From: Thermodesulfobacteriota bacterium | GTDB taxonomy: Bacteria; Desulfobacterota_D; UBA1144; Nemesobacterales; JAJCZQ01 | Direction of reading: 5' to 3' | NCBI GenBank assembly: GCA_965215275.1 | Contig: OZ244044.1 | Location: 1,797,561-1,861,560, forward strand | Length of the DNA stretch: 64,000 bases | In this document: positions 17,076 through 63,123 of the stretch, one piece after another | Layout: each line of letters begins with the position of its first letter | How positions within the stretch are numbered: position 1 is the stretch's first letter | Translations under genes and position numbers: made by a program | The notes under the pieces: generated by a model | Database searches by the model: none | What the model saw: only the letters and a program-made list of their open reading frames with translations | What the model was told of the DNA's origin: nothing

Positions 17076-17133
17076 TGCTCGGAGAAAATCTAAATTGTCT
17101 CCGTGAAATAAAGTGCGATTCTGCCAATTTGAT

Positions 17134-17142
17134 GGGGGGGGG
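17134..17142. repeat. G9 homopolymer (C9 on the coding strand) in the 5' region of the methyltransferase-HNH gene; candidate phase-variation tract
   Basis: With G10 the ATG at 17155 reads MKASTPPPSNWQNRTLFHGDNLDFLRAMNSESVHLIATDPPF in one frame. With G9 that frame stops after ~20 codons. Confidence 0.7.
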
Positions 17143-17167
17143 TGGAGGCTTTCATAGTCGTTTGTTC

Positions 17168-17380
17168 TTAGCGTTTACGCTTTTTGTCTGATCTATTTTT
17201 ATTCAATAACCGAACTTTATCGTTTTCTTTCTTTACTTGATCAGATTGCTTTCTTGGAGTAAATAAAGCACGAGCTATTTGCTCTGGTGAAACATCAACA
17301 GGCGGTAGTAGATAAGCATGCCTCTTGGTCATTGCATCCTCCTTAACAACATTATTACATACTAAATAACCATTAAGCAA
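17168..17380 (-). CDS. small basic protein (70 aa), translationally coupled to the transposase
   Basis: 8-bp overlap with the upstream transposase ORF; Lys/Arg-rich C-terminus. Confidence 0.4.
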   Translation of the reverse strand: MLNGYLVCNNVVKEDAMTKRHAYLLPPVDVSPEQIARALFTPRKQSDQVKKENDKVRLLNKNRSDKKRKR

Positions 17381-18317
17381 TTAAATCTTCATACTTCAAA
17401 CGTTTTCCGATCATTGAAGCGTATATCTCTTGCATCATTTTTTCAGTATCGTATTTCCGCAAGTTGTGCCGATTGGCAAATTCATTAACGTATCTATGTA
17501 GATGTTTAGGACTAATATGGTGAAAGGTCCCGTAATACCCTCTTTTTAGTAAAGCCCAGAAAGATTCTACACCGTTAATATGAGCTTGTTTGTTTACAAA
17601 TTCTCCAACGCTGTGTTTTACCGTCTTATGATTAAAACTCATACCTTCATAGCTCTTATAATCGTCTGTATAAACCGTTGAATTACCATCTACATGTTTA
17701 CCGATAAATTCTTGCAAACTTGATTTGTCGGTATTATTAACAACAGATGCACTTATATTGTTTGTGTTTCTATCTTTTACACCAACTACAGCCGTCTTGC
17801 CAACGACCCCACGACCTGCTTTTAGCTTTTTGCTTGAATGTTTATTTTGTTCAAGACCACCAAAATATGCTTCATCCACTTCTACGGGACCTGACATCTT
17901 ACCACCCATATTCATCCAAGCCTCACGTAACCTTTGAGCCATGAAATAAGCAGATTTCTGTGTTATTTTTAAATCTCTGTAAAGTTTCATGCTGGATACA
18001 CCTTTTAATGAAGTGGACCATAAGAAAATAGCAATAACCCACTTTTGATAACTGATCTTCGATCTTTCCATTAAACTACCAATACGAACACTGAAATTGC
18101 GTCTGCAATCACCACACCAATATGGCATAGGTTTTCCAGAAGGAACTTTACTCACTTTTACACTACCGCATCTAGGACAATGTAAATGCTTGTTATCTTT
18201 TCCCCAACGTTGCTCTTCAAACCACTGTTCTGCAACTTCATTATTAGGGAATTTCTTAAATAACTCTATAAGTGATATTCCTTTACGATAATGTTTTCCA
18301 GGTGCTTTATATGACAT
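17373..18317 (-). CDS. IS1595-family (ISXO2-like) DDE transposase
   Basis: N-terminal zinc ribbon HCPRCGS...CGDCRR, then an ISXO2-like DDE domain (VYTDDYKSYEG..., FHHISPKHLHRYVNEFA). Confidence 0.8.
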   Translation of the reverse strand: MSYKAPGKHYRKGISLIELFKKFPNNEVAEQWFEEQRWGKDNKHLHCPRCGSVKVSKVPSGKPMPYWCGDCRRNFSVRIGSLMERSKISYQKWVIAIFLWSTSLKGVSSMKLYRDLKITQKSAYFMAQRLREAWMNMGGKMSGPVEVDEAYFGGLEQNKHSSKKLKAGRGVVGKTAVVGVKDRNTNNISASVVNNTDKSSLQEFIGKHVDGNSTVYTDDYKSYEGMSFNHKTVKHSVGEFVNKQAHINGVESFWALLKRGYYGTFHHISPKHLHRYVNEFANRHNLRKYDTEKMMQEIYASMIGKRLKYEDLIA

Positions 18318-44891: not shown

Positions 44892-45182
44892 CTATCTGAA
44901 CAGACTTCTGAAAAACCTGTATATTATACCAAAAAAAGTCGGTTCCTCGGTGTTCTGCAGAGGTACGAAACCCTCTACCGATTGTGCCAGGATATCCTTG
45001 GCTTCATTATAATGATTTTCTGGCACGAAAATTGGTTTGTTATTCAATCCTCCAATAATTGGTCCAACGTACAGGGAGCCAAAATGCTCATTCCTTATGT
45101 AGTATGGAATATCAGCGGAATCCAGCAGGCTTCTTATAACGGCGAGTTCTGATTCACTGTTAGGCACATATAGCTTTTTCAT
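44892..45182 (-). CDS. DUF2007-like small protein (putative signal-transducing protein)
   Basis: 96 aa; SESELAVIRSLLDSADIPYYIRNE pattern resembles DUF2007. Confidence 0.45.
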   Translation of the reverse strand: MKKLYVPNSESELAVIRSLLDSADIPYYIRNEHFGSLYVGPIIGGLNNKPIFVPENHYNEAKDILAQSVEGFVPLQNTEEPTFFGIIYRFFRSLFR

Positions 45183-45276
45183 TCTTTAACGTATATAGGC
45201 GAACCTGTTCTGCACTTTCAGGCAATATTGATCATATAAGAGGGTTTTAATACAAATATCTTTGGGCTTTTACTCT

Positions 45277-45717
45277 TCAGAGACGGTAGCCGCCTTTTAT
45301 ATATTTTTCCAGTTCTCTGATCTGGAACTTCTGATGTTTGATAATATGCGTAAGAACGTCCCCTATTGATACAAGTCCTTCAAGCTTTCCATCTTCTATG
45401 ACGGGCAGGTGCCTTATATGGTTCTCGGACATAAGGGCCATACACTTATCAATAGGGTCAACGGGAGTTACAGAGATCACGTTTTTTGTCATAAGGTCAC
45501 CGACTTCTGTATTGATGGATGACCTGTCCTTTAAGATGATCTTTCTTGCATAGTCCCTTTCTGAGAATATACCCACTATCTTTCCTTTCTCGGTAACCAC
45601 TAATGCACCGATATCTTTTTCCTCCAGTATTTTCAGGGCATTGAAAACGGTGGTTTCCGGTGAAATGGAAAAGACCTCTTTACCTTTGACCTTTAATATA
45701 TCTATTACATTGTTCAT
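45277..45717 (-). CDS. CBS-domain pair protein
   Basis: 146 aa; two CBS motifs (VISVTPVD..., HLPVIEDGKLEGLVSIGDV). Confidence 0.75.
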   Translation of the reverse strand: MNNVIDILKVKGKEVFSISPETTVFNALKILEEKDIGALVVTEKGKIVGIFSERDYARKIILKDRSSINTEVGDLMTKNVISVTPVDPIDKCMALMSENHIRHLPVIEDGKLEGLVSIGDVLTHIIKHQKFQIRELEKYIKGGYRL

Positions 45718-46082
45718 TTTCTGATTTTTCCCAATACAACTTCTTATTACTATTATACTTTAAAAATACTCTGTCAGACAAGGATATTTCAAAATATACT
45801 GTGGATACCCGAACTGTACCATTATTCGGCAGTACTGCTTCCGGAGAAAAATTCGGAATGGATGGTCTTGAGATAACGATGTTCATTAGTGAATGGGCAG
45901 ACAAGGTCAGTTTATTAACTGACCGCTTATATAAGTTTCATTTTTAAGAACCGGCATTACTGCGTTGATCTTATCAATAAAGTTGTGTGTATGGAGATGT
46001 TTTCTGATGAGAAAGGCAGGTTTGCAGGTTTTATACATGGCAGAACGGTGATAGTTCGGGTTGAACCGGAGTTAGCGGTAAA

Positions 46083-46345
46083 GAAAAACAGTGTAAATAC
46101 AAGGGGCGTAGTCCCAATGTCGTTGTTGTATTTTGGATTTAATTCAAGGAAAGTCTGGAAAAGGGACTGCCAGATCTTGTGATAGAAAGTCTTACTTGAT
46201 ATGTTACTTTCGTGCTAAAAAGATCCGTTCTCCCATCATTGCTCCAAATTTTATGATCTCTTTATCCGAAAGGAATGTCTCTGGTGTAACAGTTTCCACG
46301 TGAAATCCAGCATCGCGTATTCTGTCTATGTAATCTTTTCCGCAT
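46083..46345. repeat. direct repeat copy 1 (3' end of the methyltransferase gene plus its downstream region)
   Basis: ~85% identical to 47213-47476 by eye, sharing AATGTCGTTGTTGTATTTTGGATTTAATTCAAGGAAA...TTACTTTCGTGCTAAAAAGATCCG. Confidence 0.7.
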
Positions 46346-46927
46346 AATCGGACATGAAGACATTCACCAAAGGTTTTGAGGCGTTCTTCAGGGTCAGTTA
46401 TTGATGGGTCCTCAAATGTTTTTTGAGTTAAGATCGGGACTAGTATTACAGCCATGCCGTCATCCTTTAATACTCTGTACAGTTCACTTATAGCTTTTTT
46501 ATCATCCTGAATATGTTCCAGTACATGACTGCAGATGATCAGATCGAAAGACCGGTCTGGATATCTGATGTTCGTTATATCCATTTCTACCATCACGTCC
46601 CGGTCACTTAGACCAGCGGATAAGTATCCTTTACCAAAATATTCCTTTAACTTTTGTGCAAGGCACACGGCTGGTGCGATATCAAGCACTTTGATAGATG
46701 GAATGGGGGGGGGGATATGTCTTTAAAAGGAAAAGGTATATCAAGCGATGTCTTTCATAGGAACCGCATGTCGGGCATTTAGCATTTTTACGACTGTTAA
46801 TGCGATTATTAATGGGAAGAAACTCTCTGGACGATCTTTTGCATACTGGGCAATACATTTCTTTTCCACAATGATAATATATTGCTTTTAGAACACTAAT
46901 GAAATATGTACGAATAAGGTGAAGCAT
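46204..46927 (-). CDS. zinc-ribbon + class I SAM-dependent methyltransferase (Methyltransf_11-like), interrupted by a G10 tract; current state frameshifted (OFF)
   Basis: N-terminal ORF (CPVC...CPTC) ends in ...LKTYPPPHSIYQSA* just after the tract. The C-terminal ORF carries the methyltransferase core (DLIICSHVLEHIQD). One fewer C would join the two frames. Confidence 0.7.
46705..46714. repeat. G10 homopolymer inside the methyltransferase coding region; candidate slipped-strand phase-variation tract
   Basis: GGAATGGGGGGGGGGATATG: the tract encodes PPP and shifts frame directly. Confidence 0.75.
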
Positions 46928-47212
46928 AGCCGTTCATTCAAAGTGATAATACATGGTGAAAAGGTAACTAAAATACCGATTTAATACAGATAATGGACCA
47001 TCTGATCAATGATGAGAAAAAAGGATACTATAGCTCAGTTCTGAATTTTTGCAATCAGGTCATTGCTGATAACGCCGTATGCTACCTCTTCCACAGGTTT
47101 TTATAGACCAGTCTTCTTTTAAAGGTATAGATCTGGTCTAGCATTTCCAGATTACGCCAAAGCTGAATACCTTACGAAGCTGGAAGAGTGCCAGAAGTCC
47201 AGTAAATACAAT

Positions 47213-47476
47213 GGTAAGGACCGTAGTTCCAATGTCGTTGTTGTATTTTGGATTTAATTCAAGGAAAATTTGGAAAAGGGACTGCCAGATCTTATGATGG
47301 AAAGTCTCACTTGATATGTTACTTTCGTGCTAAAAAGATCCGTGTTCCCTTAAATATTCCAAATTTTATGATTTTTTATCCGAAAGGAATATATCTGGTA
47401 TAATAGTTTCTATGTGAAATCTAGCATCGCATATCCTGTCTATATAATTTTCCCCGCATATCCGAAATTATTTCTT
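47213..47476. repeat. direct repeat copy 2 (decayed duplicate of the methyltransferase 3' end), abutting the GT2 start codon
   Basis: See copy 1; carries indels and substitutions. Confidence 0.7.
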
Positions 47477-48397
47477 ATGATAACAGTAGTAATCTGCACC
47501 TATAACAGAAGAAGTTATTTAAAGAAGGCAATAGATAGCATTATCAACCAAACCTTTGACCCTGACCTGTATGAACTGATCATAGTTGATAACAACTCTA
47601 CCGATGGAACAAAAGATTTTGTTTTAAACAATTACAGTCACTCCAGAGTAAAGGTAAGGTATTTGCATGAACCAAACCAGGGACTTTCACATTGTCGGAA
47701 TACGGGTCTTCGGAACGCAAGTTTTGAATATATAGCATATATTGACGATGATGGGATTGCTTATCCTGACTGGCTTGAAAATATGGCAAAAGGGATAAAG
47801 AATCAGAATGAGAAATTTGCTGGAATAACAGGTGCGATATTTCCTATATGGGAAATTCCACGACCAAGATGGCTTTTAGATTTAGATAGGTTGACTATGT
47901 TTTACTCAATATATTACCCTGACAAAAGGACTGTTATTGGTTACGGTTATGTTTTTGGCGGAAACATGGTGTGGAAAAAAAGTCTTTTAATAGAATGTGG
48001 TGGATTTAATACAAAATTAGGAAGAGTAAAAAACAATCTGATATCAGGAGAAGAAAGTCTTACTGCTGAGAAAATAGAAAAAAAAGGATATGAATTCATA
48101 TACGACCCAAAGATGAGAATAAAGCACCATATTCACAAATCCAGAATAAGTATAATGTGGTTAATTAAAAGATCTTTCTGGGGAGGTTATTCACGTATCG
48201 CAATGGAAAATATAAAAACAAAAAAAAGCATTTTAGCAAAGTTCATACAATCGTTTAAGGAGATTAAAAAAGCACTTTATAACCTTGGGTCAGTTCCTAA
48301 ATCCATTATATTTGAACCGAGGTATTATTTTTTGATTAAAATAGTTGACGCTGTAGATTCATTAGGAAGACTCTATGCTTTAGTAATAATAAAGTAA
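47477..48397 (+). CDS. family-2 glycosyltransferase (copy A; the ORF-track start at 47414 is probably an upstream extension)
   Basis: MITVVICTYNRRSYLKKAIDSIINQT...IVDNNSTDGT is the GT2 N-terminus. Close paralog of 51616-52542. Confidence 0.8.
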   Translation: MITVVICTYNRRSYLKKAIDSIINQTFDPDLYELIIVDNNSTDGTKDFVLNNYSHSRVKVRYLHEPNQGLSHCRNTGLRNASFEYIAYIDDDGIAYPDWLENMAKGIKNQNEKFAGITGAIFPIWEIPRPRWLLDLDRLTMFYSIYYPDKRTVIGYGYVFGGNMVWKKSLLIECGGFNTKLGRVKNNLISGEESLTAEKIEKKGYEFIYDPKMRIKHHIHKSRISIMWLIKRSFWGGYSRIAMENIKTKKSILAKFIQSFKEIKKALYNLGSVPKSIIFEPRYYFLIKIVDAVDSLGRLYALVIIK

Positions 48398-48439
48398 CCT
48401 TGCGTTTTTTCCAGTCAGTAAAAATATATCTATAGGCTT

Positions 48440-49267
48440 TGGTTTTATTACCTAATTCATTAAGAATAAAGTTGTTAACTTATACAAAAAACTAATTAAA
48501 TACTTCAGTATTTACGCCCACTCAAAGTGTTTTTCAATATGGTTTTAACCAATAATGCAATAAAAATACCCTCTCCCTCAATCCATTATCAGTCTGATTT
48601 CTGTTCCTTCATGTTGTAAAGGACTTCCAGTAATATTGTTTATATCATCGGTAATTAAAACTCAATAAATTGTCCTTTAGTTGTTAAGAGAGTATAAAAA
48701 ATTTTTGACCTGTTATCCATTAAGACTATCCCTGAAAATATATTGAACTTCCAGAAAAAGGGTATTACGATATGTTTTACCAAGGATAAGGATATTGGTC
48801 CTTACACAAAAATTATTTCAACCTTAACACTTTATCCCAGTGCTATAATCATCCCTGATCACATTATCTGCTCAAGATACAGAAATATGGTAAAAGAGAG
48901 TGAAAACTAACTTATACCGTATAACCATTAGACACTTAACTATTGGCTCGAAAACTGCAAATCAAAAATACATGAAATTAATTTGTTCTTTAATTCCGGG
49001 TTCGGAACTTTATTTTCACCCCAAAGCCTGCCAACTGTAACTGTAGATGAAAAGATCTTTACAGAATTAAAGTCCCTATGCGGATGATGTCTGGTTAAAC
49101 GCCATGAGACTATTGAATAACGTCAAAGTTAGTTACATAAAGACACCGCAGTATATCTATTTATACGGACATAAAAATAATAGTAAAGCACCTGACACTC
49201 TACATAGTATAAACATGAACAGAAAGCAAGTGTTTAACAAATATAATCTATACGAACGGATAAATTA
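48440..49267 (+). pseudogene. decayed paralog of the DXD-motif glycosyltransferase at 52558-53472
   Basis: Nucleotide-level similarity across the region, with multiple indels including a ~75-bp deletion spanning the DXD region. No intact ORF remains. Confidence 0.7.
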
Positions 49268-49286
49268 GTCTGTTATAGAGTGATTG

Positions 49287-50252
49287 TTATCGATAGCCAA
49301 ATAATGATCTGTATATTAACTTCTGCAGACCTTCAGGGAGAAATCTCTTGAACACATTAAACCATACCCAAGACATGATTCTGAATAACAGAAAACTTTG
49401 TAATCTTCTATGCTGGACTTCTAAATTATTATATTGGGTTTTCAAATCTCTATTTTCAACCCACCATCTTCTATTTTGGACTGTAGTACTATTAGTTTTC
49501 AGATGTTTTGCGGTCATAACCTTCACCCAATGTTTTTCATATAACTTTCTGTGTTTATTTATAATATAAGCATAATAGATATCTGATTTACTGATATTAC
49601 TCAAATACAATGAATTTTTATGTACTCTATAGTTAAATAAATATTCAGGTATTACTTTTATTTTCCATCCATCTTTAGCTATGTTTATCCAGTGCTCCCA
49701 GTCTTCATGATTCTTCAAATTTTCATCATACATCCCCACTTTAACGGATGCTTCTCGTCTGAAACAGGACGATGGTATTATATAACACCATGTTAATATC
49801 CTAACTAAACTCGTATTGCCTTTGCTATAACTACGCTTGTCAACAATATCTCCAAACATATTAAAAAAAGGAGCTACTATCCCAACATCTTTATAGTTTT
49901 CAAACACATTCCTTGCTTTCTCTAAATAGGTCGGTTCCAAATAATCATCCCCATCAAGACAACATATATATTCAGAGTCTGCCTTCTTTATACCTTCATT
50001 ACGAGCTGCTGAAACTCCTCTGTTTTTATCCAGTTTTATTAAGTGAACATTGTTTGAAATCTCATTCAGAACCTTGATCGTCTCAGGGTCGTCCGAGCGA
50101 TCATCAACTACTATCAATTGCACGTCCTGCAATGTTTGACCAAGTACCGAGTTAATTGCCTTCTTCAGCAATTTCCCTTTATTGTAAGAGGTAATTACTA
50201 CCGTGAACTCGTATACAGATAAACTTCTTGAATTATAACTGTTTCGTCCCAT
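49287..50252 (-). CDS. family-2 glycosyltransferase (copy A of the 53491-54408 paralog)
   Basis: FTVVITSYNKGKLLKKAINSVLGQT...VVDDRSDDPET...DGDDYLEP are GT2 motifs. ~85% aa identity to the paralog, with a 22-aa in-frame tandem insertion near the C-terminus. Confidence 0.8.
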   Translation of the reverse strand: MGRNSYNSRSLSVYEFTVVITSYNKGKLLKKAINSVLGQTLQDVQLIVVDDRSDDPETIKVLNEISNNVHLIKLDKNRGVSAARNEGIKKADSEYICCLDGDDYLEPTYLEKARNVFENYKDVGIVAPFFNMFGDIVDKRSYSKGNTSLVRILTWCYIIPSSCFRREASVKVGMYDENLKNHEDWEHWINIAKDGWKIKVIPEYLFNYRVHKNSLYLSNISKSDIYYAYIINKHRKLYEKHWVKVMTAKHLKTNSTTVQNRRWWVENRDLKTQYNNLEVQHRRLQSFLLFRIMSWVWFNVFKRFLPEGLQKLIYRSLFGYR

Positions 50253-51189
50253 GAGATTTTATAAAAAAATTTTTAACCTTCCTGTGTACCCAGTAAGTTA
50301 TTAATCTGTCTAAAAATAGGTTAAACTTTACTAAATATCCTTTATTTATTGGATTACTGTTCATTGTATAACTAAAACTAACTATAGATGGGTACTTCAG
50401 AGTTAATATATAAGATAAATGTCTATTCCTCTGTTTCTTTGATAATATATGTTTTAAATTATTATAGTAATTATGAAATAAAACTAATTCCGGATCATAA
50501 AGAAAAGAATCCTTGTCATATCCATAGAACTCAACCATTCTAAAACACAAAAATGTACCCTCGTGTCCCACCATACCATCCTCAAAACCTCCCACCTCAA
50601 TAAAATCCTTCCTCTTGAACATTGAGACACATTCAGCATTTATACAGCAAGGAATAACTTCATCTCCTAAATCATAATGACACGGTTCAATTCTAATCAA
50701 ACCGGTATGGATCTGTTTTACCTTACCTCTAATTGCCACTAATTTAGCGTCATTCATCAGAACTTGAACCTTATCAAACGCTATGTCCACGTCTTCAAGA
50801 TAACCATCGGCATCAACAAAAAAAATAACGGGTGCATTGCAGTATAAACTCCCTATGTTCCTTCCCGTTCCACATCCCACGTTTTTATTCATAACAATAT
50901 GCTTTAGGGAATAGGACCGTAACTTCTCTTTAGCTGGTTCGGATAGACCATTATCAACAACTACTATTTCATACGACCCTGATTTGGCACATGTTATAGA
51001 ACTCAACGCTCTGAATAATAACTCATCTTCATTATAAACAACCAGCAAAAAACTTATCCAGGGCTCTTGGATATCTTGCAAATTATATGAATTAACCTCT
51101 TCTATACTATCACTATACTTTTCTATTGAGAGCGGTGGCTTTTTATGCTCTAATTTTAAATCGAGATAATCCTTGAGGTTGTTTTTCAT
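50233..51189 (-). CDS. family-2 glycosyltransferase (singleton lying between the two duplicated blocks)
   Basis: SFLLVVYNEDELLFRALSSI...VVVDNGLSEP and a DAD-type motif in FFVDADGY. Confidence 0.7.
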   Translation of the reverse strand: MKNNLKDYLDLKLEHKKPPLSIEKYSDSIEEVNSYNLQDIQEPWISFLLVVYNEDELLFRALSSITCAKSGSYEIVVVDNGLSEPAKEKLRSYSLKHIVMNKNVGCGTGRNIGSLYCNAPVIFFVDADGYLEDVDIAFDKVQVLMNDAKLVAIRGKVKQIHTGLIRIEPCHYDLGDEVIPCCINAECVSMFKRKDFIEVGGFEDGMVGHEGTFLCFRMVEFYGYDKDSFLYDPELVLFHNYYNNLKHILSKKQRNRHLSYILTLKYPSIVSFSYTMNSNPINKGYLVKFNLFLDRLITYWVHRKVKNFFIKSHGTKQL

Positions 51190-51367
51190 TTTAACAAAGT
51201 CGGTGTATTGTTCTGCCTAACTGTAAATAGTGATAGTAATATCTGTATCCCAGAACAGTATGCATAATTATATATAAATCCTGAAAAGTACATTATGACG
51301 GTACAATTTCTACTTTTCATTTCAATCCCGTGGCAAACATGGTGTTTTTAGCTGAGAGAACAAAACT

Positions 51368-51550
51368 TTGTTTCATGGAGACAATTTAGATTTTGTACGA
51401 GCAATGAATAGTAATAGTGTAGATATAGTAAAAACAGACACACCTTTCAATAAAAGCAAAGACTTTTCTGCTGACAGAGCAGTATGGTTTCTGAAGCAAA
51501 GGTTTCAGTATAGATGGTCTTGGGATGACTCTGTTCATGAAAGGTGGTAA
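51368..51550 (+). pseudogene. N-terminal remnant (60 aa) of a beta-class DNA methyltransferase, homologous to the island methyltransferase at 15801-17155
   Basis: MFHGDNLDFVRAMNSNSVDIVKTDTPFNKSKDF...YRWSWDDSVHERW aligns with (L)FHGDNLDFLRAMNSESVHLIATDPPFNKNRDF...DRWSWDRDVHQEW. Confidence 0.7.
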
Positions 51551-51615
51551 GACAAGACCGCTGATAACTTTTCTATTATGTAAAGTTGCGTATATAGTTC
51601 CCTAATTTACTTCTT

Positions 51616-52542
51616 ATGATAACAGTAATAATTTGCACCTATAACAGAAGAAGTTATTTAAAGAAGGCAATAGATAGTATTATCAACCAAACCTTTGACC
51701 CTGACCTGTATGAACTGATCATAGTTGATAACAACTCTACCGATGGAACAAAAGATTTTGTTTTAAACAATTACAGTCACTCCAGAGTAAAGGTAAGGTA
51801 TTTGCATGAACCAAACCAAGGGCTTTCACATTGTAGGAATACGGGACTTCGGAACGCAAGTTTTGAATATATAGCATATATTGACGATGATGGGATTGCT
51901 TACTCTGACTGGCTTGAAAATATGGCAAAAGGAATAAAAGACCAGAATGAGAAATTTGCTGGAATAACAGGTGCGATATTTCCTATATGGGAAATTCCAC
52001 GTCCAAGGTGGCTTTTAGATAAGTGGCAGATTGCTATATATTACTCAATATATAAACACCGTGACAAAAGAATTGTTATTAGTCGAGGTGTCAAGATAGG
52101 TGTTTTTGGCGGAAACATGGTGTGGAAAAAAAGTCTTTTAATAGAATGTGGTGGATTTAATACAAAATTAGGAAGAGTAAAAAACAATCTGATATCAGGA
52201 GAAGAAAATTTTACTGCTGAGAGAATAAAAAATAAAGGATATGAATTCATATACGACCCGAAAATGAGAATAAAGCACCATATTCACAAATCCAGAATAA
52301 ATATAAAATGGTTAATTAAAAGAGCTTTCTGGGGAGGTTATTCACATATAGCAGCAGAAAATATAAAACAAAGCGTTTTAACAAAGTTCATACGATCGTT
52401 CAAGGAGATCATAAGAGCACTTTTTCACATTGGGTCAGTTCCTGCTATCATTATATTTAAACCAAGATATCATTTCCTGATTAACATAATTAACGCTGTA
52501 AATTCATCAGGAAGGATCTATGGTTTGTTGAGAATTAAGTAA
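51616..52542 (+). CDS. family-2 glycosyltransferase (copy B)
   Basis: 308 aa; first ~170 aa are near-identical to the 47477-48397 product. Confidence 0.85.
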   Translation: MITVIICTYNRRSYLKKAIDSIINQTFDPDLYELIIVDNNSTDGTKDFVLNNYSHSRVKVRYLHEPNQGLSHCRNTGLRNASFEYIAYIDDDGIAYSDWLENMAKGIKDQNEKFAGITGAIFPIWEIPRPRWLLDKWQIAIYYSIYKHRDKRIVISRGVKIGVFGGNMVWKKSLLIECGGFNTKLGRVKNNLISGEENFTAERIKNKGYEFIYDPKMRIKHHIHKSRINIKWLIKRAFWGGYSHIAAENIKQSVLTKFIRSFKEIIRALFHIGSVPAIIIFKPRYHFLINIINAVNSSGRIYGLLRIK

Positions 52543-52557
52543 TCTTGGTTTTAACCT

Positions 52558-53472
52558 ATGTTCATGGAGAATAAAGTTGCTAACTTATTTAAAAGACTAA
52601 TTAAACACTTTAGTACCTATGTCCACTTAAAGTTTTTAAATATGTTTTCAACCAATAAGGCAGTAGCCAATATACCTTCTTCAATCCCACCCATTATTAT
52701 CAGCCTGACCTCTATCCCTTCACGTTTTAAAGAACTTCCAATAGTGCTTGAAAGTTTATGCCATCAGTCAGTAAAACCCGATAAAATTATCCTCTGGCTG
52801 TCAAAAGAGTATAAAAATAAAAAGTTTGGTCATTTGTCCATGAAAACTATCCCTGAAAATATACTGAACTTTCAGAAAAGGGGTATTACAATACGTTTTA
52901 CGCAGGACATCGGGCCTTACACAAAAATCATTCCAACCCTGAAACTTTATCCCAATGCCGTTATCATAACCGTCGATGACGACCTTATGTATAAACCAGA
53001 CCTGGTAAAGTATTTATATGAAAAACACCGGCAATTACCTGATCATATTATCTGCTCAAGATACAGAAATATGGTCAAAAAGAATGAAAACGAACTTATA
53101 CCTTATAACAATTGGGAACTCAACTGCTGGCTTGAAAACTGCAAATCAAAAATACATGAAACTAATTCGTTCTTTAATTCCGGATTCGGAACTTTATTTC
53201 CACCTCAGAGTCTGCCAACTGTAACTGCAGATGAAAAGATCTTTACAGAATTAAGTCCCTATGCGGATGATGTTTGGTTAAACGCCATGAGATTACTGAA
53301 CAACGTCAAGGTCAGTTGCATAAAAAAGCCGCAGTATATCTATTTATACGGACATAAAAATAATAGCAAAGCACCCGACACTCTACGTAGTATAAACATG
53401 AACAGAAAGCAAAACGATATTCAGTTAAAGCAAGTATTTGACAGATATGATCTATACGAACGGATAAATTAG
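52558..53472 (+). CDS. putative glycosyltransferase with a DXD motif (intact copy)
   Basis: 304 aa; VIITVDDDLMY and a capsule/LPS-type sugar-transferase-like pattern. Intact counterpart of the pseudogene at 48440-49267. Confidence 0.6.
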   Translation: MFMENKVANLFKRLIKHFSTYVHLKFLNMFSTNKAVANIPSSIPPIIISLTSIPSRFKELPIVLESLCHQSVKPDKIILWLSKEYKNKKFGHLSMKTIPENILNFQKRGITIRFTQDIGPYTKIIPTLKLYPNAVIITVDDDLMYKPDLVKYLYEKHRQLPDHIICSRYRNMVKKNENELIPYNNWELNCWLENCKSKIHETNSFFNSGFGTLFPPQSLPTVTADEKIFTELSPYADDVWLNAMRLLNNVKVSCIKKPQYIYLYGHKNNSKAPDTLRSINMNRKQNDIQLKQVFDRYDLYERIN

Positions 53473-53490
53473 TCCGTTATGGAGTGATTG

Positions 53491-54408
53491 TCATCTATAG
53501 CTAAATAATAATCTGTATATTAACTTCTGCAGACCTTCAGGGAGAAATTTCTTGAACACGTTAAGCCATACCCAAGACATGGTCCGGAATAACAGGAAAC
53601 TTTGTAATCTTCTATGCTGGACTATCAAGTTACTAGTTCGCCGATGTTTTGCGGTTACGACCTCAACCAAATGTTCTTCATATAACTTTCTGTGTTTATT
53701 TATAATATAAGCATAATAGATATCTGCCTTACCAATATTACTCAAATGTAATGAATGTCCGTGCACTCTGATATTCACTAAATATTGCGGTATTACTTTT
53801 ATCTTCCACCCATCTTTAGCTATGTTTATCCAGTGCTCCCAATCTTCATGATCCCTCAAATTCTCATCATACATACCTACTTTAACGGATGCCTCTCGTC
53901 TGAAGCAGGATGGCGATATTATATAAAACCATGTTAATATCCTAACTAAACTCGTATCACCCATGCTATGACTACGTTTGCCAGTAATATCTCCAAACAC
54001 ATTATAAAAAGAAGCTACTATTCCGACATCTTTATCATTTTCAAATACGTTCCTTGCTTTCTCTAAATAGGTCGGTTCCAAATAATCATCCCCGTCAAGA
54101 CAACATATATATTCAGAATCCGCGTTCCTTATACCTTCATTACGAGCTGCTGAAACTCCTCTGTTCTTATCCAGTCTTATTACGTGAACATCTTTTGAGA
54201 TCTGGTTCAGAACCTTGATCGTTTCAGGGTCGTCCGAGCGATCATCAACTACTATAAGTTGCACGTCATGCAACGTTTGACCAAGGACCGAGTTAATTGC
54301 CTGCTTCAGCCATCTCCCTTTGTTGTAAGAGGTAATTACTACGGTGAACTTAAACCCGTAAGATAGTTTATTTGAATTTGAACCGTTATATTCTTTGACA
54401 GCCTTCAT
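53491..54408 (-). CDS. family-2 glycosyltransferase (copy B)
   Basis: 305 aa; paralog of 49287-50252. Confidence 0.85.
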   Translation of the reverse strand: MKAVKEYNGSNSNKLSYGFKFTVVITSYNKGRWLKQAINSVLGQTLHDVQLIVVDDRSDDPETIKVLNQISKDVHVIRLDKNRGVSAARNEGIRNADSEYICCLDGDDYLEPTYLEKARNVFENDKDVGIVASFYNVFGDITGKRSHSMGDTSLVRILTWFYIISPSCFRREASVKVGMYDENLRDHEDWEHWINIAKDGWKIKVIPQYLVNIRVHGHSLHLSNIGKADIYYAYIINKHRKLYEEHLVEVVTAKHRRTSNLIVQHRRLQSFLLFRTMSWVWLNVFKKFLPEGLQKLIYRLLFSYR

Positions 54409-55054
54409 AAGGGATCACCAATCCTCAGAGTCATACACTTAAACTGTTCTGTAACAAAATTTCCCATCTGAAGATAGGAGAATTACATAGTTGATTTGAC
54501 AAATTGTATTGCTCATCAGCTTTTCCAGACCTTGGTTTGTCGTTTTTACTGCCTGAAAAAATATGAATACACAATCAAATCCTATCCAGTTCATCTCAGG
54601 CAAACAGTTTCTGATTATTAATATCTGATCTGTCATAGTGTGAAATAAAACGTTCAGTCAATTGGTTTTATGATCATCAATATTTAGTGTAATGTACAAA
54701 TTTGTATTGGCAAAAGTCAAATATGTAATGGCACCTGAAGCACTCAAAGGAAATTATATGCAGTAGTGGGAACGTCTGTGTTGTGAGTTCTTACGCCGTT
54801 TTATTTTATGAGAAGTTTTACATTTAAGACAGACAGTTTTACCACACCATCTTATTTATTCAGACCAACCGCCTTGCGTTCAACAGTTTTAACTCGTCTT
54901 TTTACTGTCTTTATAATACCTGTAATACAGCTAAAAATATAATTATATCAAGCAGTTATGACAGATTTATTTAAAATTATTTTAAAGTTTTATGTATTTT
55001 TGTATATAGGTTCCCAATTTAACATACGGTTTTTATCAACTATAATATGGGTTA

Positions 55055-57452: not shown

Positions 57453-58268
57453 TCAGCTAAACGACCTTCGATAATCCGTCCCGTCAATATACATAAAGTC
57501 ACACATCTCATGAAGTCTGGATAATATGCGCTTTCCTATTCTTTCCTCCAAGAGCTCGGAGTTTGAAGGATCGTTCCCTGCGTGCTCCCTTGACAGAAAA
57601 TTGGTCGTGATCAAGGTTTTCTTGGACGTGTTGTACCTATCAGAGATCAACTGATCTAAAATGCCCTGCTCCCACTCAGTATTCTTGCCCTTACCCATTT
57701 CATCTATTACAAGCACCTCCACCTTCAGCAGGGGCTGAAGTATGTCTGTTTCATATAAGCCTTGTGAATAAGCCTGCTTGAGTTCGGATAAAAGCAGAAA
57801 AAAATCCTTAAATAAACAATCGATCCCTTTCTCTATCGTAAGTTCTGATATGGTGCCGATCACAAGGTGCGTTTTACCTACTCCCGGAGGTCCCATTAAA
57901 ACGTAACCTTTTTTATTCTCTGAATACTGGTTTATAAATTTGTCCTTTATGTGCTTCAAGGCGTTCTGCTGACTTGTGGACTCGGGTTTATAGGTGTCTA
58001 CCATCAATACTGATGAGAATTTCACGGGTATTTCCGCACGATTGTACTTCTTTATATTGCTTCTCAAATAGCCACAGGCCGGACAGGGAAGATACACTTC
58101 ATAGTTATTTTTATTTTTATCGATTACAGACCCTATACCATTACATAACTGACACTCGTCCACACACCTGCATGCTTTAAGGTGAGAGAATTTCTTATGT
58201 TTACGAGCAACGTAACCCTGATGACGACAGTCAAGACAGCCTATTTGTTTTTTGCGCTCGATGATCAC
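57453..58268 (-). CDS. DnaC/DnaI/IstB-like AAA+ helicase-loader ATPase with an N-terminal Cys-rich zinc module
   Basis: 271 aa; Walker A GPPGVGKTHL and Walker B VLVIDEMG. N-terminal CLDCRH...CRCVDECQLCNG...CPACG cysteine cluster. Confidence 0.65.
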   Translation of the reverse strand: MIIERKKQIGCLDCRHQGYVARKHKKFSHLKACRCVDECQLCNGIGSVIDKNKNNYEVYLPCPACGYLRSNIKKYNRAEIPVKFSSVLMVDTYKPESTSQQNALKHIKDKFINQYSENKKGYVLMGPPGVGKTHLVIGTISELTIEKGIDCLFKDFFLLLSELKQAYSQGLYETDILQPLLKVEVLVIDEMGKGKNTEWEQGILDQLISDRYNTSKKTLITTNFLSREHAGNDPSNSELLEERIGKRILSRLHEMCDFMYIDGTDYRRSFS

Positions 58269-58936
58269 CGTTTATCAACTTCAAATGGATTAAAAGATAT
58301 GTACTTTTCTATTATGAGGTTTTTCAAATAAGTATGCAATAATTTTTCTTTCGACCGCTCATTGACGTAATCATCACGACTGGCTAAAAACCTTTCCACA
58401 TCATCTTCGAAAGTCTCACTGTGCACTTCATACAGACACCTGTATATCCTGTCAAAATACTCCGCCTCCATTTCATTGACCTTTTCAAACACGTTCTTTT
58501 CAGAGACGTCCAGCCCTAAAAGCCCTGCCTTGAACTCACTGTGCAGCTTACGAAGATCAGAGGATCTTTCTGCTTTTATCAATCTGTTGAAGTTATCTGA
58601 CAGGTCTTTTATATAAAGCCTGACTTCCAGGGAACCAGCCGCGACGGACCTGCGTTCGTTCAGTTCCGACCCGCTGCTTTCAACCTGCTCCTTACAGTCG
58701 CAGATACTTCTGATGTTCTTTCCTGTTTTCTGCTCAAAAGCATCCGTTATACCCTTGATGACCCGCTCTTTTGATAATCCCATATCCTGCCACTTACTGA
58801 TGAGGTAATAATCACTGGAAGAGACCATAACCCCTTTTCCGCAGAGCGTTAAAAAGTAGTTCTCAATATCTTTGACAAACGTATCGGACTGGCTCATTCG
58901 TACACCGACAGATACAACCCCGCGACCCGGGATCAT
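58265..58936 (-). CDS. DnaD-like (DnaB_2 / DDBH2 domain) replication-initiation/restart protein
   Basis: 223 aa; the segment YYLISKWQDMGLSKERVIKGITDAFEQ matches the DnaD-domain core (x-W-x-x-G). 4-bp overlap with the downstream loader gene. Confidence 0.5.
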   Translation of the reverse strand: MIPGRGVVSVGVRMSQSDTFVKDIENYFLTLCGKGVMVSSSDYYLISKWQDMGLSKERVIKGITDAFEQKTGKNIRSICDCKEQVESSGSELNERRSVAAGSLEVRLYIKDLSDNFNRLIKAERSSDLRKLHSEFKAGLLGLDVSEKNVFEKVNEMEAEYFDRIYRCLYEVHSETFEDDVERFLASRDDYVNERSKEKLLHTYLKNLIIEKYISFNPFEVDKR

Positions 58937-62220: not shown

Positions 62221-63123
62221 ATGGCGGACAACACCTATGAGAATATGTTGGAGGCTTATCTGACGTATCTTATAGTTATAAGGGGTTTATCTAAAAATAC
62301 CGTAAACTCTTATAAAACGGACGTTAAAAAGTTATTTGAATTCCTGAAAGCAGCCAACATCAACTCAATGTATGATATACAGCCCGATCATCTGGCTAGA
62401 TTTATAGCCGATTTGAACGTTAAGGGATTAGGTATCAGGTCGATAAACAGGTGTACAGTTTCCGTAAAGCAGTTCTTCAGATACTTAATGCTTGAAAATG
62501 TCCTTGAAAGTGACCCTGCGAGAAATTTAACAACTCCCAGAATGAAAAGAGCTCTGCCGGAAGTGCTGTCGGTGGAAGATATTAAAAAGATCCTTGACTC
62601 TCCCGACCGGTCAACGTTCGAAGGATTAAGGGACTCCGCGATGCTTGAAGTATTGTACGCCTCCGGGATCAGGGTATCTGAACTGGTTAATTTAACCCTT
62701 ACCAGCTTAAATCAGGACCATGGATACCTTGCAGTGTTCGGCAAGGGAAACAAGGAGAGGCTGACGCCAATTGGACAACACGCTTTAAAAAAGGTCAGGG
62801 ATTACTTATCCTTATCCAGACCGCATTTAATAAAGGACAGGATATCAGACTACGTCTTTATAACAAGACATGGTTCGAAGTTTACAAGACAGGGATTCTG
62901 GAAAATAGTAAAAGGCCATGCAGCAAAAGCAGGAATACAGCAGAATATCAGCCCTCACACCATCAGGCACTCATTTGCTACCCATCTTCTCGAAAATGGT
63001 GCCGACCTGAGGTCGATCCAGATGCTGCTCGGACATTCAGATATTTCGACAACACAGATATACACTCACGTTGAGAGTAAAAGATTAAAAGAAATTCACA
63101 GAAAGTTTCATCCGAGGTCATAA
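62221..63123 (+). CDS. tyrosine site-specific recombinase (XerC/XerD family)
   Basis: 300 aa; C-terminal R...HxxR...Y catalytic pattern (HSFATHLLENGADLRSIQMLLGHSDISTTQIYTHV). Confidence 0.85.
   Translation: MADNTYENMLEAYLTYLIVIRGLSKNTVNSYKTDVKKLFEFLKAANINSMYDIQPDHLARFIADLNVKGLGIRSINRCTVSVKQFFRYLMLENVLESDPARNLTTPRMKRALPEVLSVEDIKKILDSPDRSTFEGLRDSAMLEVLYASGIRVSELVNLTLTSLNQDHGYLAVFGKGNKERLTPIGQHALKKVRDYLSLSRPHLIKDRISDYVFITRHGSKFTRQGFWKIVKGHAAKAGIQQNISPHTIRHSFATHLLENGADLRSIQMLLGHSDISTTQIYTHVESKRLKEIHRKFHPRS

What the first reader, a model, noticed from the sequence alone, without database searches (positions are those of the whole stretch)
46682..46927. G10 tract splits a zinc-ribbon/SAM-methyltransferase gene at the head of the glycosyltransferase locus (phase-variable OFF state)
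The N-terminal ORF (two CxxC pairs) reads ...LKTYPPPHSIYQSA* and terminates 7 codons after the C10 run. The methyltransferase core (Methyltransf_11-like, DLIICSHVLEHIQDD) continues in the +1 frame with no internal start other than GTG. With C9 the frames join into one ~240-aa protein. Homopolymer-controlled modification genes in surface-polysaccharide loci are a known route to phase-variable glycan decoration (for example O-methylation). Together with the G9 tract at 17134 this makes two homopolymer-switched methyltransferases in 64 kb, and I saw no other G/C runs of 9 or more in the window.
Basis: partly seen in the sequence, partly recalled or inferred. Interest (0 to 1): 0.7.

Follow-up and report, generated by a model that had tools for sequence, protein, structure and literature searches.

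The report
Poly-C switch in a methyltransferase gene
A run of ten C's knocks a zinc-ribbon methyltransferase gene out of frame, and related bacteria carry the same run at lengths from 7 to 11 in otherwise intact genes. It is therefore most likely an ordinary slipped-strand on/off (phase-variation) switch, seen here in a little-studied uncultured lineage.

Summary
G10 at 46705-46714 (C10 on the coding minus strand) splits a gene into an 81-aa Cys4 zinc-ribbon ORF and a 161-aa Methyltransf_11 ORF. C9 or C12 gives one 240/241-aa protein with the architecture found in 85 aligned homologues.

It is neither chance nor a dead gene. Only about 0.02-0.07 G/C runs of 10 or more are expected in the window. 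In seven related copies from other assemblies the same codons carry C7, C8, C9 (three copies), C11 or no run. One tract-bearing copy is in frame, five are out of frame, and the tract-free copy is intact. Two contigs differ over 1220 nt by one substitution plus C7 versus C9. Every out-of-frame copy is otherwise intact, and dN/dS is 0.25-0.35.

Other long G/C runs in this lineage lie in DNA-methyltransferase and glycosyltransferase genes.

Best reading: a homopolymer contingency locus, OFF in this assembly.

- The copy is a cassette imported from a dapF-adjacent paralogous locus. It sits beside the relic of the resident methyltransferase.
- The glycan substrate is only inferred.

Read-level switching could not be tested. 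This is a new member of a known kind, of moderate interest.

The parts
46705..46714 (-). Homopolymeric tract: G10 on +, C10 on the coding strand. It encodes the Pro-Pro-Pro linker between the zinc ribbon and the Rossmann domain. This is the proposed slipped-strand switch, out of frame (OFF) at this length.
   Evidence: The position is homologous to the C7-C11 tracts in L001, L031-L034 and L042.
46204..46927 (-). Whole methyltransferase gene: 240 aa when the tract is C9, 241 aa when it is C12.
   Evidence: More than 430 homologues of about 230-260 aa share the same two-domain architecture.
46682..46927 (-). N-terminal ORF (81 aa): helix plus Cys4 zinc ribbon (CPVC...CPTC). It terminates 7 codons after the tract.
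   Evidence: The four Cys are invariant in 85 homologues. An AF2 model of the paralogue P0001 shows a small beta ribbon followed by a helix.
46204..46689 (-). C-terminal ORF (161 aa, GTG start): class I SAM-dependent methyltransferase core. It begins at motif I (VLDIAP). I saw no Shine-Dalgarno-like sequence upstream by eye.
47038..47121 (-). Fragment of the 3' end of dapF, carried in with the methyltransferase cassette from the dapF-adjacent paralogous locus.
   Evidence: tblastn: 20 of 20 residues identical to the DapF C-terminus of L042. Window 46180-47121 is 93% identical to L042 9481-10414.
47122..47466 (-). Relic of the resident methyltransferase: last ~40 codons, frameshifted and truncated, plus its downstream sequence. 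This is the upstream copy of the direct repeat.
   Evidence: (84% to L001 10341-10680).
46101..46346 (-). Downstream copy of the ~245-nt direct repeat, made of the 3' end of the current methyltransferase gene plus downstream sequence.
   Evidence: 85-90% identity, spacing 1115 nt.
47477..54408 (.). Adjacent low-GC cluster of GT2 glycosyltransferase genes: 47477-48397(+), 49287-50252(-), 50233-51189(-), 51616-52542(+), 53491-54408(-), and a sub-threshold one at 52558-53472(+). These are the possible makers of the methyltransferase's substrate.
   Evidence: Pfam hits. GC is 30-36% here against 43-49% in the flanks.
17134..17142 (-). Second tract, G9, in the 5' end of a DNA adenine methyltransferase-HNH gene (15801-17163, minus strand). 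G10 or G7 would join the upstream ATG to a 451/450-aa protein.

Best explanation
The gene encodes a class I SAM-dependent methyltransferase with an N-terminal Cys4 zinc ribbon. Its expression is governed by a hypermutable poly-C tract in the codons of the inter-domain Pro-Pro-Pro linker.

Proposed mechanism (inferred): slipped-strand mispairing during replication adds or removes C's. Lengths of 9 or 12 give the full 240/241-aa enzyme (ON). Lengths of 8, 10 or 11 stop translation just after the zinc ribbon (OFF). The sequenced state, C10, is OFF.

The gene belongs to a small recombining family of such cassettes in this lineage. There are at least three copies in the source genome, and relatives carry copies at a dapF-adjacent locus and at this CBS/glycosyltransferase locus. 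The tract-bearing copies each have their own tract, so different cells can carry different ON/OFF combinations.

The likely substrate (inferred) is a sugar of a surface polysaccharide built by the neighbouring GT2 genes. Switching would then vary surface methylation, for example against phages or a host.

Shown: the tract, its frame effect, tract-length polymorphism among relatives, and purifying selection. Inferred: reversibility, switching rate, substrate and selective benefit.
For: - Frame effect: C9 or C12 restores one 240/241-aa ORF.
- Architecture: Methyltransf_11 scores 53.3 bits. The four Cys are invariant in 85 homologues. The AF2 model of the intact paralogue P0001 has pLDDT 93.8 and places the linker in a loop between helix 53-65 and strand 76-79. 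Fold matches are class I methyltransferases, including the sugar O-methyltransferases AtmM and RebM.
- Tract polymorphism at the homologous codons:
  - window C10, OFF
  - L001 C9, ON
  - L030 no tract, ON
  - L031 C9, OFF
  - L032 C7, OFF
  - L033 C9, OFF
  - L034 C11, OFF
  - L042 C8, OFF
.
- L032 and L033 differ over 1220 nt by one substitution and the 2-nt tract difference only.
- After a 1-nt correction every OFF copy gives a full 235-240-aa protein with no other lesion.
- dN/dS between the window copy and the others is 0.25-0.35 overall and 0.20-0.29 in the catalytic domain.
- Six of seven tract-bearing copies being OFF is compatible with the 2/3 expected at random (p = 0.26).
- Chance: 0.02-0.065 runs of 10 or more are expected.
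- The assembly is not generally error-prone at homopolymers. Of the 35 A/T runs of 7 or more, 22 lie inside intact long ORFs, including a T9 and four A8. None of the A/T runs breaks a gene.
- Lineage-wide pattern: the other long G/C tracts sit in gene classes typical of phase variation. These are the window G9 in a DNA methyltransferase, a G10 in a GT2 gene in L001, and a C11 splitting an MmeI-like methyltransferase in L042.
- Precedent: C. jejuni cj1426 is a poly-G phase-variable capsule 6-O-methyltransferase that switches at about 2.5e-2 (PMC8437040).
- Context: 7 of 13 loci of more distant homologues are polysaccharide loci.
Against: - No read-level data, so heterogeneity within one population and reversibility are unproven.
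- Each tract length is a consensus of one assembly. The length in the window contig (1.99 Mb, sequencing platform unknown) could itself be off by one.
- Most tract-bearing copies are OFF, and the same genome has an intact paralogue (P0001). Relaxed selection on this copy is therefore possible.
- The copy is a transplanted cassette beside a relic, which also fits gene-family turnover.
- Substrate evidence is weak. The dapF-locus copies lie next to Fic, helicase and restriction genes rather than glycosyltransferases. Six of 13 distant homologues are not in glycan loci.
Confidence: 0.68

Rival explanations
1. Decaying duplicate. The gene is a redundant, recently transplanted paralogue that has been inactivated at a mutation-prone run and is on its way to loss. 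The tract-length differences are neutral drift in dead copies.
For: The same genome encodes an intact paralogue, P0001. The copy sits beside a clear relic of another copy and carries a dapF fragment. Six of seven tract-bearing copies are out of frame.
Against: No out-of-frame copy has a second stop or frameshift, even at dS of 0.4-0.5 between copies. dN/dS is 0.25-0.35. The real relic next door shows what decay looks like here: truncated and with a further frameshift. An in-frame tract copy exists at the orthologous position in L001.
Confidence: 0.13
2. Assembly or sequencing error. The true tract in this genome is C9, the gene is simply intact, and G10 is a homopolymer miscall.
For: A 1.99-Mb single contig suggests long reads, which can miscount long homopolymers. 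G/C runs of 10 are hard for most platforms.
Against: A/T runs up to 9 nt are handled correctly in 22 intact genes. Independent assemblies, including the SPAdes-named ENA contigs L001 and L042, show the same site at several lengths, mostly out of frame. Even if this one length is wrong, the locus remains length-polymorphic.
Confidence: 0.1
3. Recoding. The tract is decoded through, either by a +1 ribosomal shift of tRNA-Pro on CCC-C during a polyproline stall or by transcriptional slippage. Out-of-frame copies would then still yield some full-length enzyme.
For: Five of six out-of-frame copies are exactly one C too long, the state that a +1 shift or a 1-nt transcript deletion would correct. +1 slippage at CCC-N proline codons is established from my own knowledge. 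SSRs could in principle cause non-standard decoding (PMC1088944).
Against: The 5:1 bias is not significant (p = 0.11) and could reflect an insertion bias of slippage. The frameshift is not conserved: an in-frame tract allele (L001) and a tract-free allele (L030) exist, and one allele needs the opposite shift (L032). The transcriptional slippage analysed in PMC1088944 concerns A and T runs.
Confidence: 0.06
4. Functional split gene. The zinc-ribbon peptide and the methyltransferase domain are made separately, with reinitiation at the GTG that overlaps the stop (GTGCTTGA), and work as two pieces.
For: The stop of the N-terminal ORF lies 2 nt after the GTG start of the C-terminal ORF in the window, L031, L033 and L042.
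Against: The overlap depends on an Asp codon and is absent in L034 (His codon) and in the other frame, L032. The C-terminal ORF starts inside motif I. All 85 homologues are single chains.
Confidence: 0.03

Closest known systems
Campylobacter jejuni cj1426c, the poly-G phase-variable capsule heptose 6-O-methyltransferase (with the other poly-G genes of the CPS/LOS clusters)
   Same: Both have a homopolymeric G/C tract inside the coding region of a SAM-dependent methyltransferase. Both lie next to polysaccharide biosynthesis genes. Both give a frameshift ON/OFF, and both genomes hold several such tracts, including in other modification genes (PMC8437040).
   Different: Sequence relationship to Cj1426 was not tested. 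The organism here is an uncultured lineage; its MetK is only about 70% identical to the nearest named hits, Dadabacteria and Thermodesulfobacteriota MAGs. The protein has an N-terminal Cys4 zinc ribbon. The tract sits in the inter-domain linker, about 30% into the gene. Switching and substrate are unproven. The gene is a multi-copy cassette that moves between loci.
Vibrio cholerae O1 phase-variable O-antigen genes (homopolymer tracts in O-antigen biosynthesis genes)
   Same: Homopolymer-driven frameshifts in surface-polysaccharide genes create heterogeneity in a phage receptor within a strain (PMC3441752, abstract seen).
   Different: From my own knowledge, those tracts are poly-A and lie in biosynthetic genes (manA, wbeL), not in a decorating methyltransferase. 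They also abolish or reduce the whole O antigen.
Phase-variable DNA methyltransferases (phasevarions) and restriction-modification genes with SSRs in Neisseria, Haemophilus and Helicobacter
   Same: The same switch type operates on methyltransferase genes. This lineage also has tracts in DNA-methyltransferase genes: window G9 at 17134 and L042 C11.
   Different: The gene in question has no DNA-methyltransferase motifs. Its best fold and sequence matches are small-molecule or sugar methyltransferases.
Zinc-ribbon plus Methyltransf_11 proteins annotated only as 'class I SAM-dependent methyltransferase' (e.g. P0026 Treponema primitia, P0032 Chloroflexus aurantiacus)
   Same: They share the domain architecture, the four invariant Cys and 40-55% identity.
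   Different: The family consensus has no proline run at the linker. The homopolymer is specific to this lineage. No member with a known substrate was found.

Membership tests
SSR (homopolymeric-tract) phase-variable contingency locus | Long mononucleotide G/C tract (about 7 nt or more) within the reading frame or promoter | tested here: met
   C10 at 46705-46714 lies inside the ORF. Only 0.02-0.065 such runs are expected.
SSR (homopolymeric-tract) phase-variable contingency locus | Some tract lengths give the full-length protein and others truncate it | tested here: met
   C9 and C12 give 240/241 aa. C8, C10 and C11 truncate the protein.
SSR (homopolymeric-tract) phase-variable contingency locus | Tract length differs among closely related strains while the flanks are conserved, and both ON and OFF states are seen | tested here: met
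   Lengths of 7, 8, 9, 9, 9, 10 and 11 nt were seen. L001 is in frame and six copies are out of frame. L032 and L033 differ by C7 versus C9 plus one substitution over 1220 nt.
SSR (homopolymeric-tract) phase-variable contingency locus | The gene is otherwise maintained by selection | tested here: met
   There is no second lesion in any of the six out-of-frame copies. dN/dS is 0.25-0.35.
SSR (homopolymeric-tract) phase-variable contingency locus | High-frequency, reversible switching within a clonal population, with a matching phenotype | not testable with these tools
   No reads or cultures are available.
Class I SAM-dependent methyltransferase with N-terminal Cys4 zinc ribbon | Methyltransf_11-type Rossmann domain above the curated threshold | tested here: met
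   53.3 bits against a cut-off of 21.2. The fold of paralogue P0001 matches class I methyltransferases at Foldseek probability 1.00.
Class I SAM-dependent methyltransferase with N-terminal Cys4 zinc ribbon | Two CxxC pairs conserved in the family | tested here: met
   C25, C28, C46 and C49 are invariant in 85 sequences. They are present in the window ORF as CPVC and CPTC.
Glycan O-methyltransferase of a surface-polysaccharide locus (Cj1426-like role) | Encoded within, and co-inherited with, a polysaccharide biosynthesis cluster | tested here: inconclusive
   The gene is adjacent to five or six GT2 genes here and in L001. Seven of 13 loci of distant homologues are glycan loci. However, this copy derives from a dapF/Fic/restriction neighbourhood.
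Glycan O-methyltransferase of a surface-polysaccharide locus (Cj1426-like role) | Homology to a characterised sugar O-methyltransferase, or demonstrated sugar substrate | tested here: inconclusive
   AtmM and RebM (sugar O-methyltransferases) are among the top fold hits. Phosphoethanolamine N-methyltransferases score equally well, TM is about 0.5 and identity 14-21%. Cj1426 itself was not compared.
Programmed frameshift / transcriptional-slippage gene | The frameshift requirement is conserved across orthologues | tested here: not met
   L001 is in frame with a tract, L030 is intact without one, and the out-of-frame copies need shifts in both directions.
Pseudogene | Accumulating multiple disabling lesions and dN/dS near 1 | tested here: not met
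   There is a single lesion at the tract only, and dN/dS is 0.25-0.35. In contrast, the neighbouring relic at 47122-47466 is truncated and frameshifted.

The most novel reading that the evidence does not exclude
The poly-C/polyproline linker may be more than a DNA-level switch. It could also be a +1 recoding site, through tRNA-Pro slippage on CCC-C during a PPP stall or through 1-nt transcript slippage. Alleles that are one C too long would then be leaky rather than off, giving graded methyltransferase levels across several independently set cassettes in one genome. Five of the six out-of-frame alleles are in this one-C-too-long state.
Probability: 0.06. Interest if true: 0.6.

Novelty: new member of a known kind. 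Interest (0 to 1): 0.42.

Why it matters
Homopolymer contingency loci are textbook biology in a few cultured, host-adapted pathogens such as Campylobacter, Neisseria, Haemophilus and Helicobacter. Here the same logic appears in an uncultured lineage known only from metagenomes. Its nearest named hits are Dadabacteria and Thermodesulfobacteriota MAGs, at about 70% MetK identity. In the roughly 100 kb examined, tracts occur in a surface-type methyltransferase family, a glycosyltransferase and two DNA-methyltransferase genes. If confirmed with reads, this would show that the organism generates stochastic surface and restriction diversity, which points to strong phage or host pressure. It would also give annotators a concrete reason not to discard these split genes as pseudogenes. 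The multi-copy, locus-hopping cassette adds a recombinational layer to the variation. The mechanism itself is not new.

Tried and rejected
- Genome-contig scan: found only homologues of 48% identity or less, not the source genome or close relatives.
- Metagenome-contig scan: only 7 distant loci, with no further close alleles.
- The look-up of encoding contigs for P0001, P0003 and P0121, all on the 1.99-Mb source contig: not on record. The two other paralogues of the source genome could therefore not be read at DNA level. Whether P0003 (162 aa) is really split is unknown. L001 shows that a short gene call can hide an intact gene.
- Logan contig carrying the CBS gene (L051): it ends 466 nt before the position where the methyltransferase would lie.
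- Search with the 81-aa N-terminal ORF and exact look-ups of four N-terminal fragments: nothing found.
- afdb50 fold library: unavailable.
- Rfam and tRNA scans of the window: empty.
- Literature search for the sample accessions and for phase variation in Dadabacteria: no papers. The habitat of the samples remains unknown to me.
- A Markov simulation timed out and was replaced by analytic expectations.
- NCBIfam and PDB sequence searches gave only generic, sub-threshold methyltransferase matches, so no substrate could be assigned.
- Rejected: the idea that the gene is the native head of the glycosyltransferase operon.
- Rejected: a conserved programmed frameshift.

Full report
**Observation**

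The + strand carries G10 at 46705-46714. The gene is on the minus strand.
- An ATG-initiated ORF at 46682-46927 encodes 81 aa with CPVC and CPTC pairs. It ends ...LKTYPPPHSIYQSA*, seven codons after the C10 run.
- A GTG-initiated ORF at 46204-46689 encodes 161 aa that include DLIICSHVLEHIQDD.
- Editing the tract in silico shows that C9 or C12 fuses the two into a 240- or 241-aa protein. C8, C10 and C11 do not.
- The fused protein matches Pfam Methyltransf_11 at 53.3 bits, against a cut-off of 21.2.

The only other G/C run of 7 or more in 64 kb is G9 at 17134-17142. Expected numbers of G/C runs are 0.10-0.26 for runs of 9 or more and 0.02-0.065 for runs of 10 or more. The local GC content is only 39%.

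**The split interrupts a conserved single-chain architecture**

A database search with the fused protein found 435 homologues, nearly all 220-270 aa and covering both halves. In an alignment of 85 of them the four cysteines are invariant.

An AlphaFold model of P0001, the intact paralogue from the same genome (79% identical), has mean pLDDT 93.8. It shows an N-terminal helix, a small beta ribbon, a helix, a loop at residues 66-75, and then the Rossmann fold. The tract encodes that loop. This explains why whole-codon length changes (PPP or PPPP) are tolerated.

The family consensus has no proline run at this point, so the homopolymer is an innovation of this lineage. Fold and sequence searches against solved structures return generic class I methyltransferases. 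The hits include the sugar O-methyltransferases AtmM and RebM, phosphoethanolamine N-methyltransferases and YcgJ. TM-scores are about 0.5 and identities 14-21%. NCBIfam gives only sub-threshold hits. The substrate cannot be assigned from homology.

**Relatives**

The window comes from a 1,990,023-bp contig. The same contig also encodes P0001 (236 aa, intact) and P0003 (162 aa, C-terminal part only) outside the window. Its MetK is about 70% identical to the nearest named hits, which are Candidatus Dadabacteria and Thermodesulfobacteriota MAGs.

I recovered seven related copies from other assemblies and read the DNA at the homologous codons:

| Locus | Source and context | Tract | State |
|---|---|---|---|
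| window | CBS / glycosyltransferase locus | C10 | out of frame (C9 or C12 in frame) |
| L001 | ENA; syntenic thiolase-FtsK-LolA-sulfite reductase-DUF2007-CBS-methyltransferase-GT2 | C9 | in frame; intact 281-aa gene although the gene caller reported only 171 aa |
| L030 | JGI; syntenic | none (interrupted ...ACTACCCTCCCACCC...) | intact, 236 aa |
| L031 | JGI; dapF-type copy (upstream ORF not annotated) | C9 | out of frame (C8 in frame) |
| L032 | JGI; dapF-type copy (upstream ORF not annotated) | C7 | out of frame (C8 in frame) |
| L033 | JGI; dapF-adjacent | C9 | out of frame (C8 in frame) |
| L034 | Logan; dapF-type copy (upstream ORF not annotated) | C11 | out of frame (C10 in frame) |
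| L042 | ENA; dapF-adjacent | C8 | out of frame (C7 or C10 in frame) |

L032 and L033 come from different samples. Over 1220 aligned bases they differ by one substitution and by the 2-nt tract difference, with no other indel.

**Is it a dead gene?**

After correcting only the tract, every copy translates to a complete 235-240-aa protein with no further stop or frameshift. Nei-Gojobori dN/dS between the window copy and the others is 0.25-0.35 overall and 0.20-0.29 in the catalytic domain, at dS of 0.27-0.50. This includes pairs in which both copies are out of frame.

The real relic next door (see the section on the neighbourhood below) is truncated and additionally frameshifted. That is what decay looks like in this genome.

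Six of seven tract-bearing copies are out of frame. This is compatible with the two-thirds expected if tract length is random (p = 0.26).

**Is it an assembly artefact?**

The window contains 35 A/T runs of 7 or more. Twenty-two lie inside intact long ORFs, including a T9 and four A8 runs. The other 13 are not spanned by a long open frame; they lie within 60 nt of an ORF end or between genes. None of the A/T runs breaks a gene; only the two G/C runs do. The syntenic genes have the same lengths in independent assemblies.

Independent assemblies show the tract at various lengths, including the SPAdes-named ENA contigs L001 and L042. I cannot exclude that the length in this particular contig is off by one, but the locus as such is length-polymorphic.

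**Lineage-wide pattern**

In the roughly 100 kb of this lineage that I could read, the other long G/C runs are these:
- The window G9 at 17134-17142. G10 or G7 would join an upstream ATG to a 451- or 450-aa DNA adenine methyltransferase-HNH protein that includes the N-terminal stretch NRTLFHGDNLDFL.
- A G10 near the start of a GT2 gene in L001, in frame. The window orthologue at 49287-50252 has no tract.
- A C11 in L042 that splits an N6_Mtase/MmeI-like gene into 682 and 287 aa.

Methyltransferases, restriction-modification genes and glycosyltransferases are the classic repertoire of homopolymer contingency loci. C. jejuni NCTC11168 has 29 poly-G/C tracts, eight of them in the capsule and LOS clusters. 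One is cj1426, the capsule heptose 6-O-methyltransferase, which switches at about 2.5e-2 in both directions (PMC8437040). Phase-variable O-antigen genes also control a phage receptor in V. cholerae (PMC3441752).

A ~245-nt direct repeat (46101-46346 versus 47216-47460, 85-90% identical) flanks the gene. BLAST against the relatives shows a mosaic:
- 45000-46100 is backbone, 92% identical to L001.
- 46180-47121 is 93% identical to the dapF-adjacent locus of L042. It includes the last codons of dapF at 47038-47121, with 20 of 20 residues identical.
- 47122-47466 is an 84%-identical relic of the 3' end and downstream region of the resident methyltransferase. It abuts the start of the first GT2 gene.

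So the present gene is a cassette imported from the paralogous dapF locus. It replaced, or displaced, the native methyltransferase at the edge of the low-GC GT2 cluster (GC 30-36%; Pfam hits).

In L042 the dapF-locus copy lies next to Fic, a large helicase and a restriction gene, not next to glycosyltransferases. Among more distant homologues, 7 of 13 loci are polysaccharide loci (L002, L003, L004, L035, L036, L038, L040). Six are not (L005-L009 and P0011). A glycan substrate is therefore plausible but only inferred.

**Mechanism and rivals**

Best explanation (confidence about 0.68): slipped-strand mispairing at the poly-C linker switches translation of a zinc-ribbon SAM methyltransferase on and off. 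The gene is one of several recombining cassettes, and this assembly shows it OFF.

Rivals:
- A redundant duplicate in early decay (about 0.13).
- A miscounted tract in this contig (about 0.10). This would not abolish the polymorphism of the locus.
- Read-through by a +1 ribosomal shift or by transcriptional slippage (about 0.06). Five of six out-of-frame copies are one C too long, but this is not significant (p = 0.11). The frameshift is also not conserved.
- A functional two-piece enzyme made by reinitiation at the overlapping GTG...TGA (about 0.03). That overlap is not conserved.

**Verdict**

The 'glycan decoration' claim and the 'head of the locus' claim should be softened. Read-level proof is outstanding.

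This is a new member of a well-known kind of system. Its interest is moderate. It lies in the organism (an uncultured lineage in which I found no report of phase variation) and in the multi-copy, locus-hopping cassette, not in the mechanism.

Noticed in passing
window 17134-17142 (gene 15801-17163, minus strand): A G9 tract lies in the 5' end of a DNA adenine methyltransferase fused to an HNH domain. With G9 the upstream ATG frame stops after 21 codons. G10 or G7 gives a 451/450-aa protein that includes the N-terminal stretch NRTLFHGDNLDFL. An IS1595 transposase lies immediately upstream, at 17373-18317 (minus strand).
   Followed up: partly
window 47038-47121 (minus strand): An orphan fragment of the dapF 3' end, with 20 of 20 residues identical to DapF of L042, sits directly upstream of the methyltransferase. 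It marks the gene as a cassette imported from the dapF-adjacent paralogous locus.
   Followed up: yes
window 47122-47466 versus 46101-46346: A direct repeat of about 245 nt. The upstream copy is a truncated, frameshifted relic of the resident methyltransferase 3' end plus its downstream sequence. It overlaps the spurious GTG extension of the first GT2 ORF, whose real start is probably the ATG at 47477.
   Followed up: yes
L001 9792-9899: Nine copies of an in-frame 12-nt tandem repeat (NRIN/SRIN units) lie in the loop between the two CxxC pairs of the orthologous methyltransferase. The window has two units. This is a second, non-frameshifting repeat polymorphism in the same gene, and it misled the gene caller.
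   Followed up: partly
L001 7274-7283: A G10 tract lies about 50-60 nt into a GT2 gene, in frame. That gene is the orthologue of window 49287-50252, which has no tract.
   Followed up: partly
L042 18101-18111: A C11 tract splits an N6_Mtase/MmeI-like restriction-modification gene into 682-aa and 287-aa ORFs. It lies in a Fic/helicase/restriction neighbourhood next to the dapF-locus methyltransferase copy.
   Followed up: partly
window 47000-55000: The GT2 cluster has much lower GC (30-36%) than its flanks (43-49%). It holds three of the window's five A8 runs (48078, 48220, 50818), all currently in frame. Poly-A tracts of this length are phase-variable in some O-antigen genes.
   Followed up: no
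window 46204-46927 and the source genome: The source genome has at least three copies of this methyltransferase family (window copy, P0001, P0003) plus one relic. The C-terminal domain of the window copy is about 99% identical in protein to L042, while the N-terminal part is less similar. This suggests gene conversion among copies.
   Followed up: partly
window 57453-58268 (minus strand): An IstB-like (IS21 helper) ATPase gene with no IstA-type transposase match next to it: the adjacent upstream ORF (58265-58936) has no Pfam hit, and the downstream neighbour is a histone-deacetylase-family gene. A tyrosine recombinase gene lies at 62221-63123.
   Followed up: no
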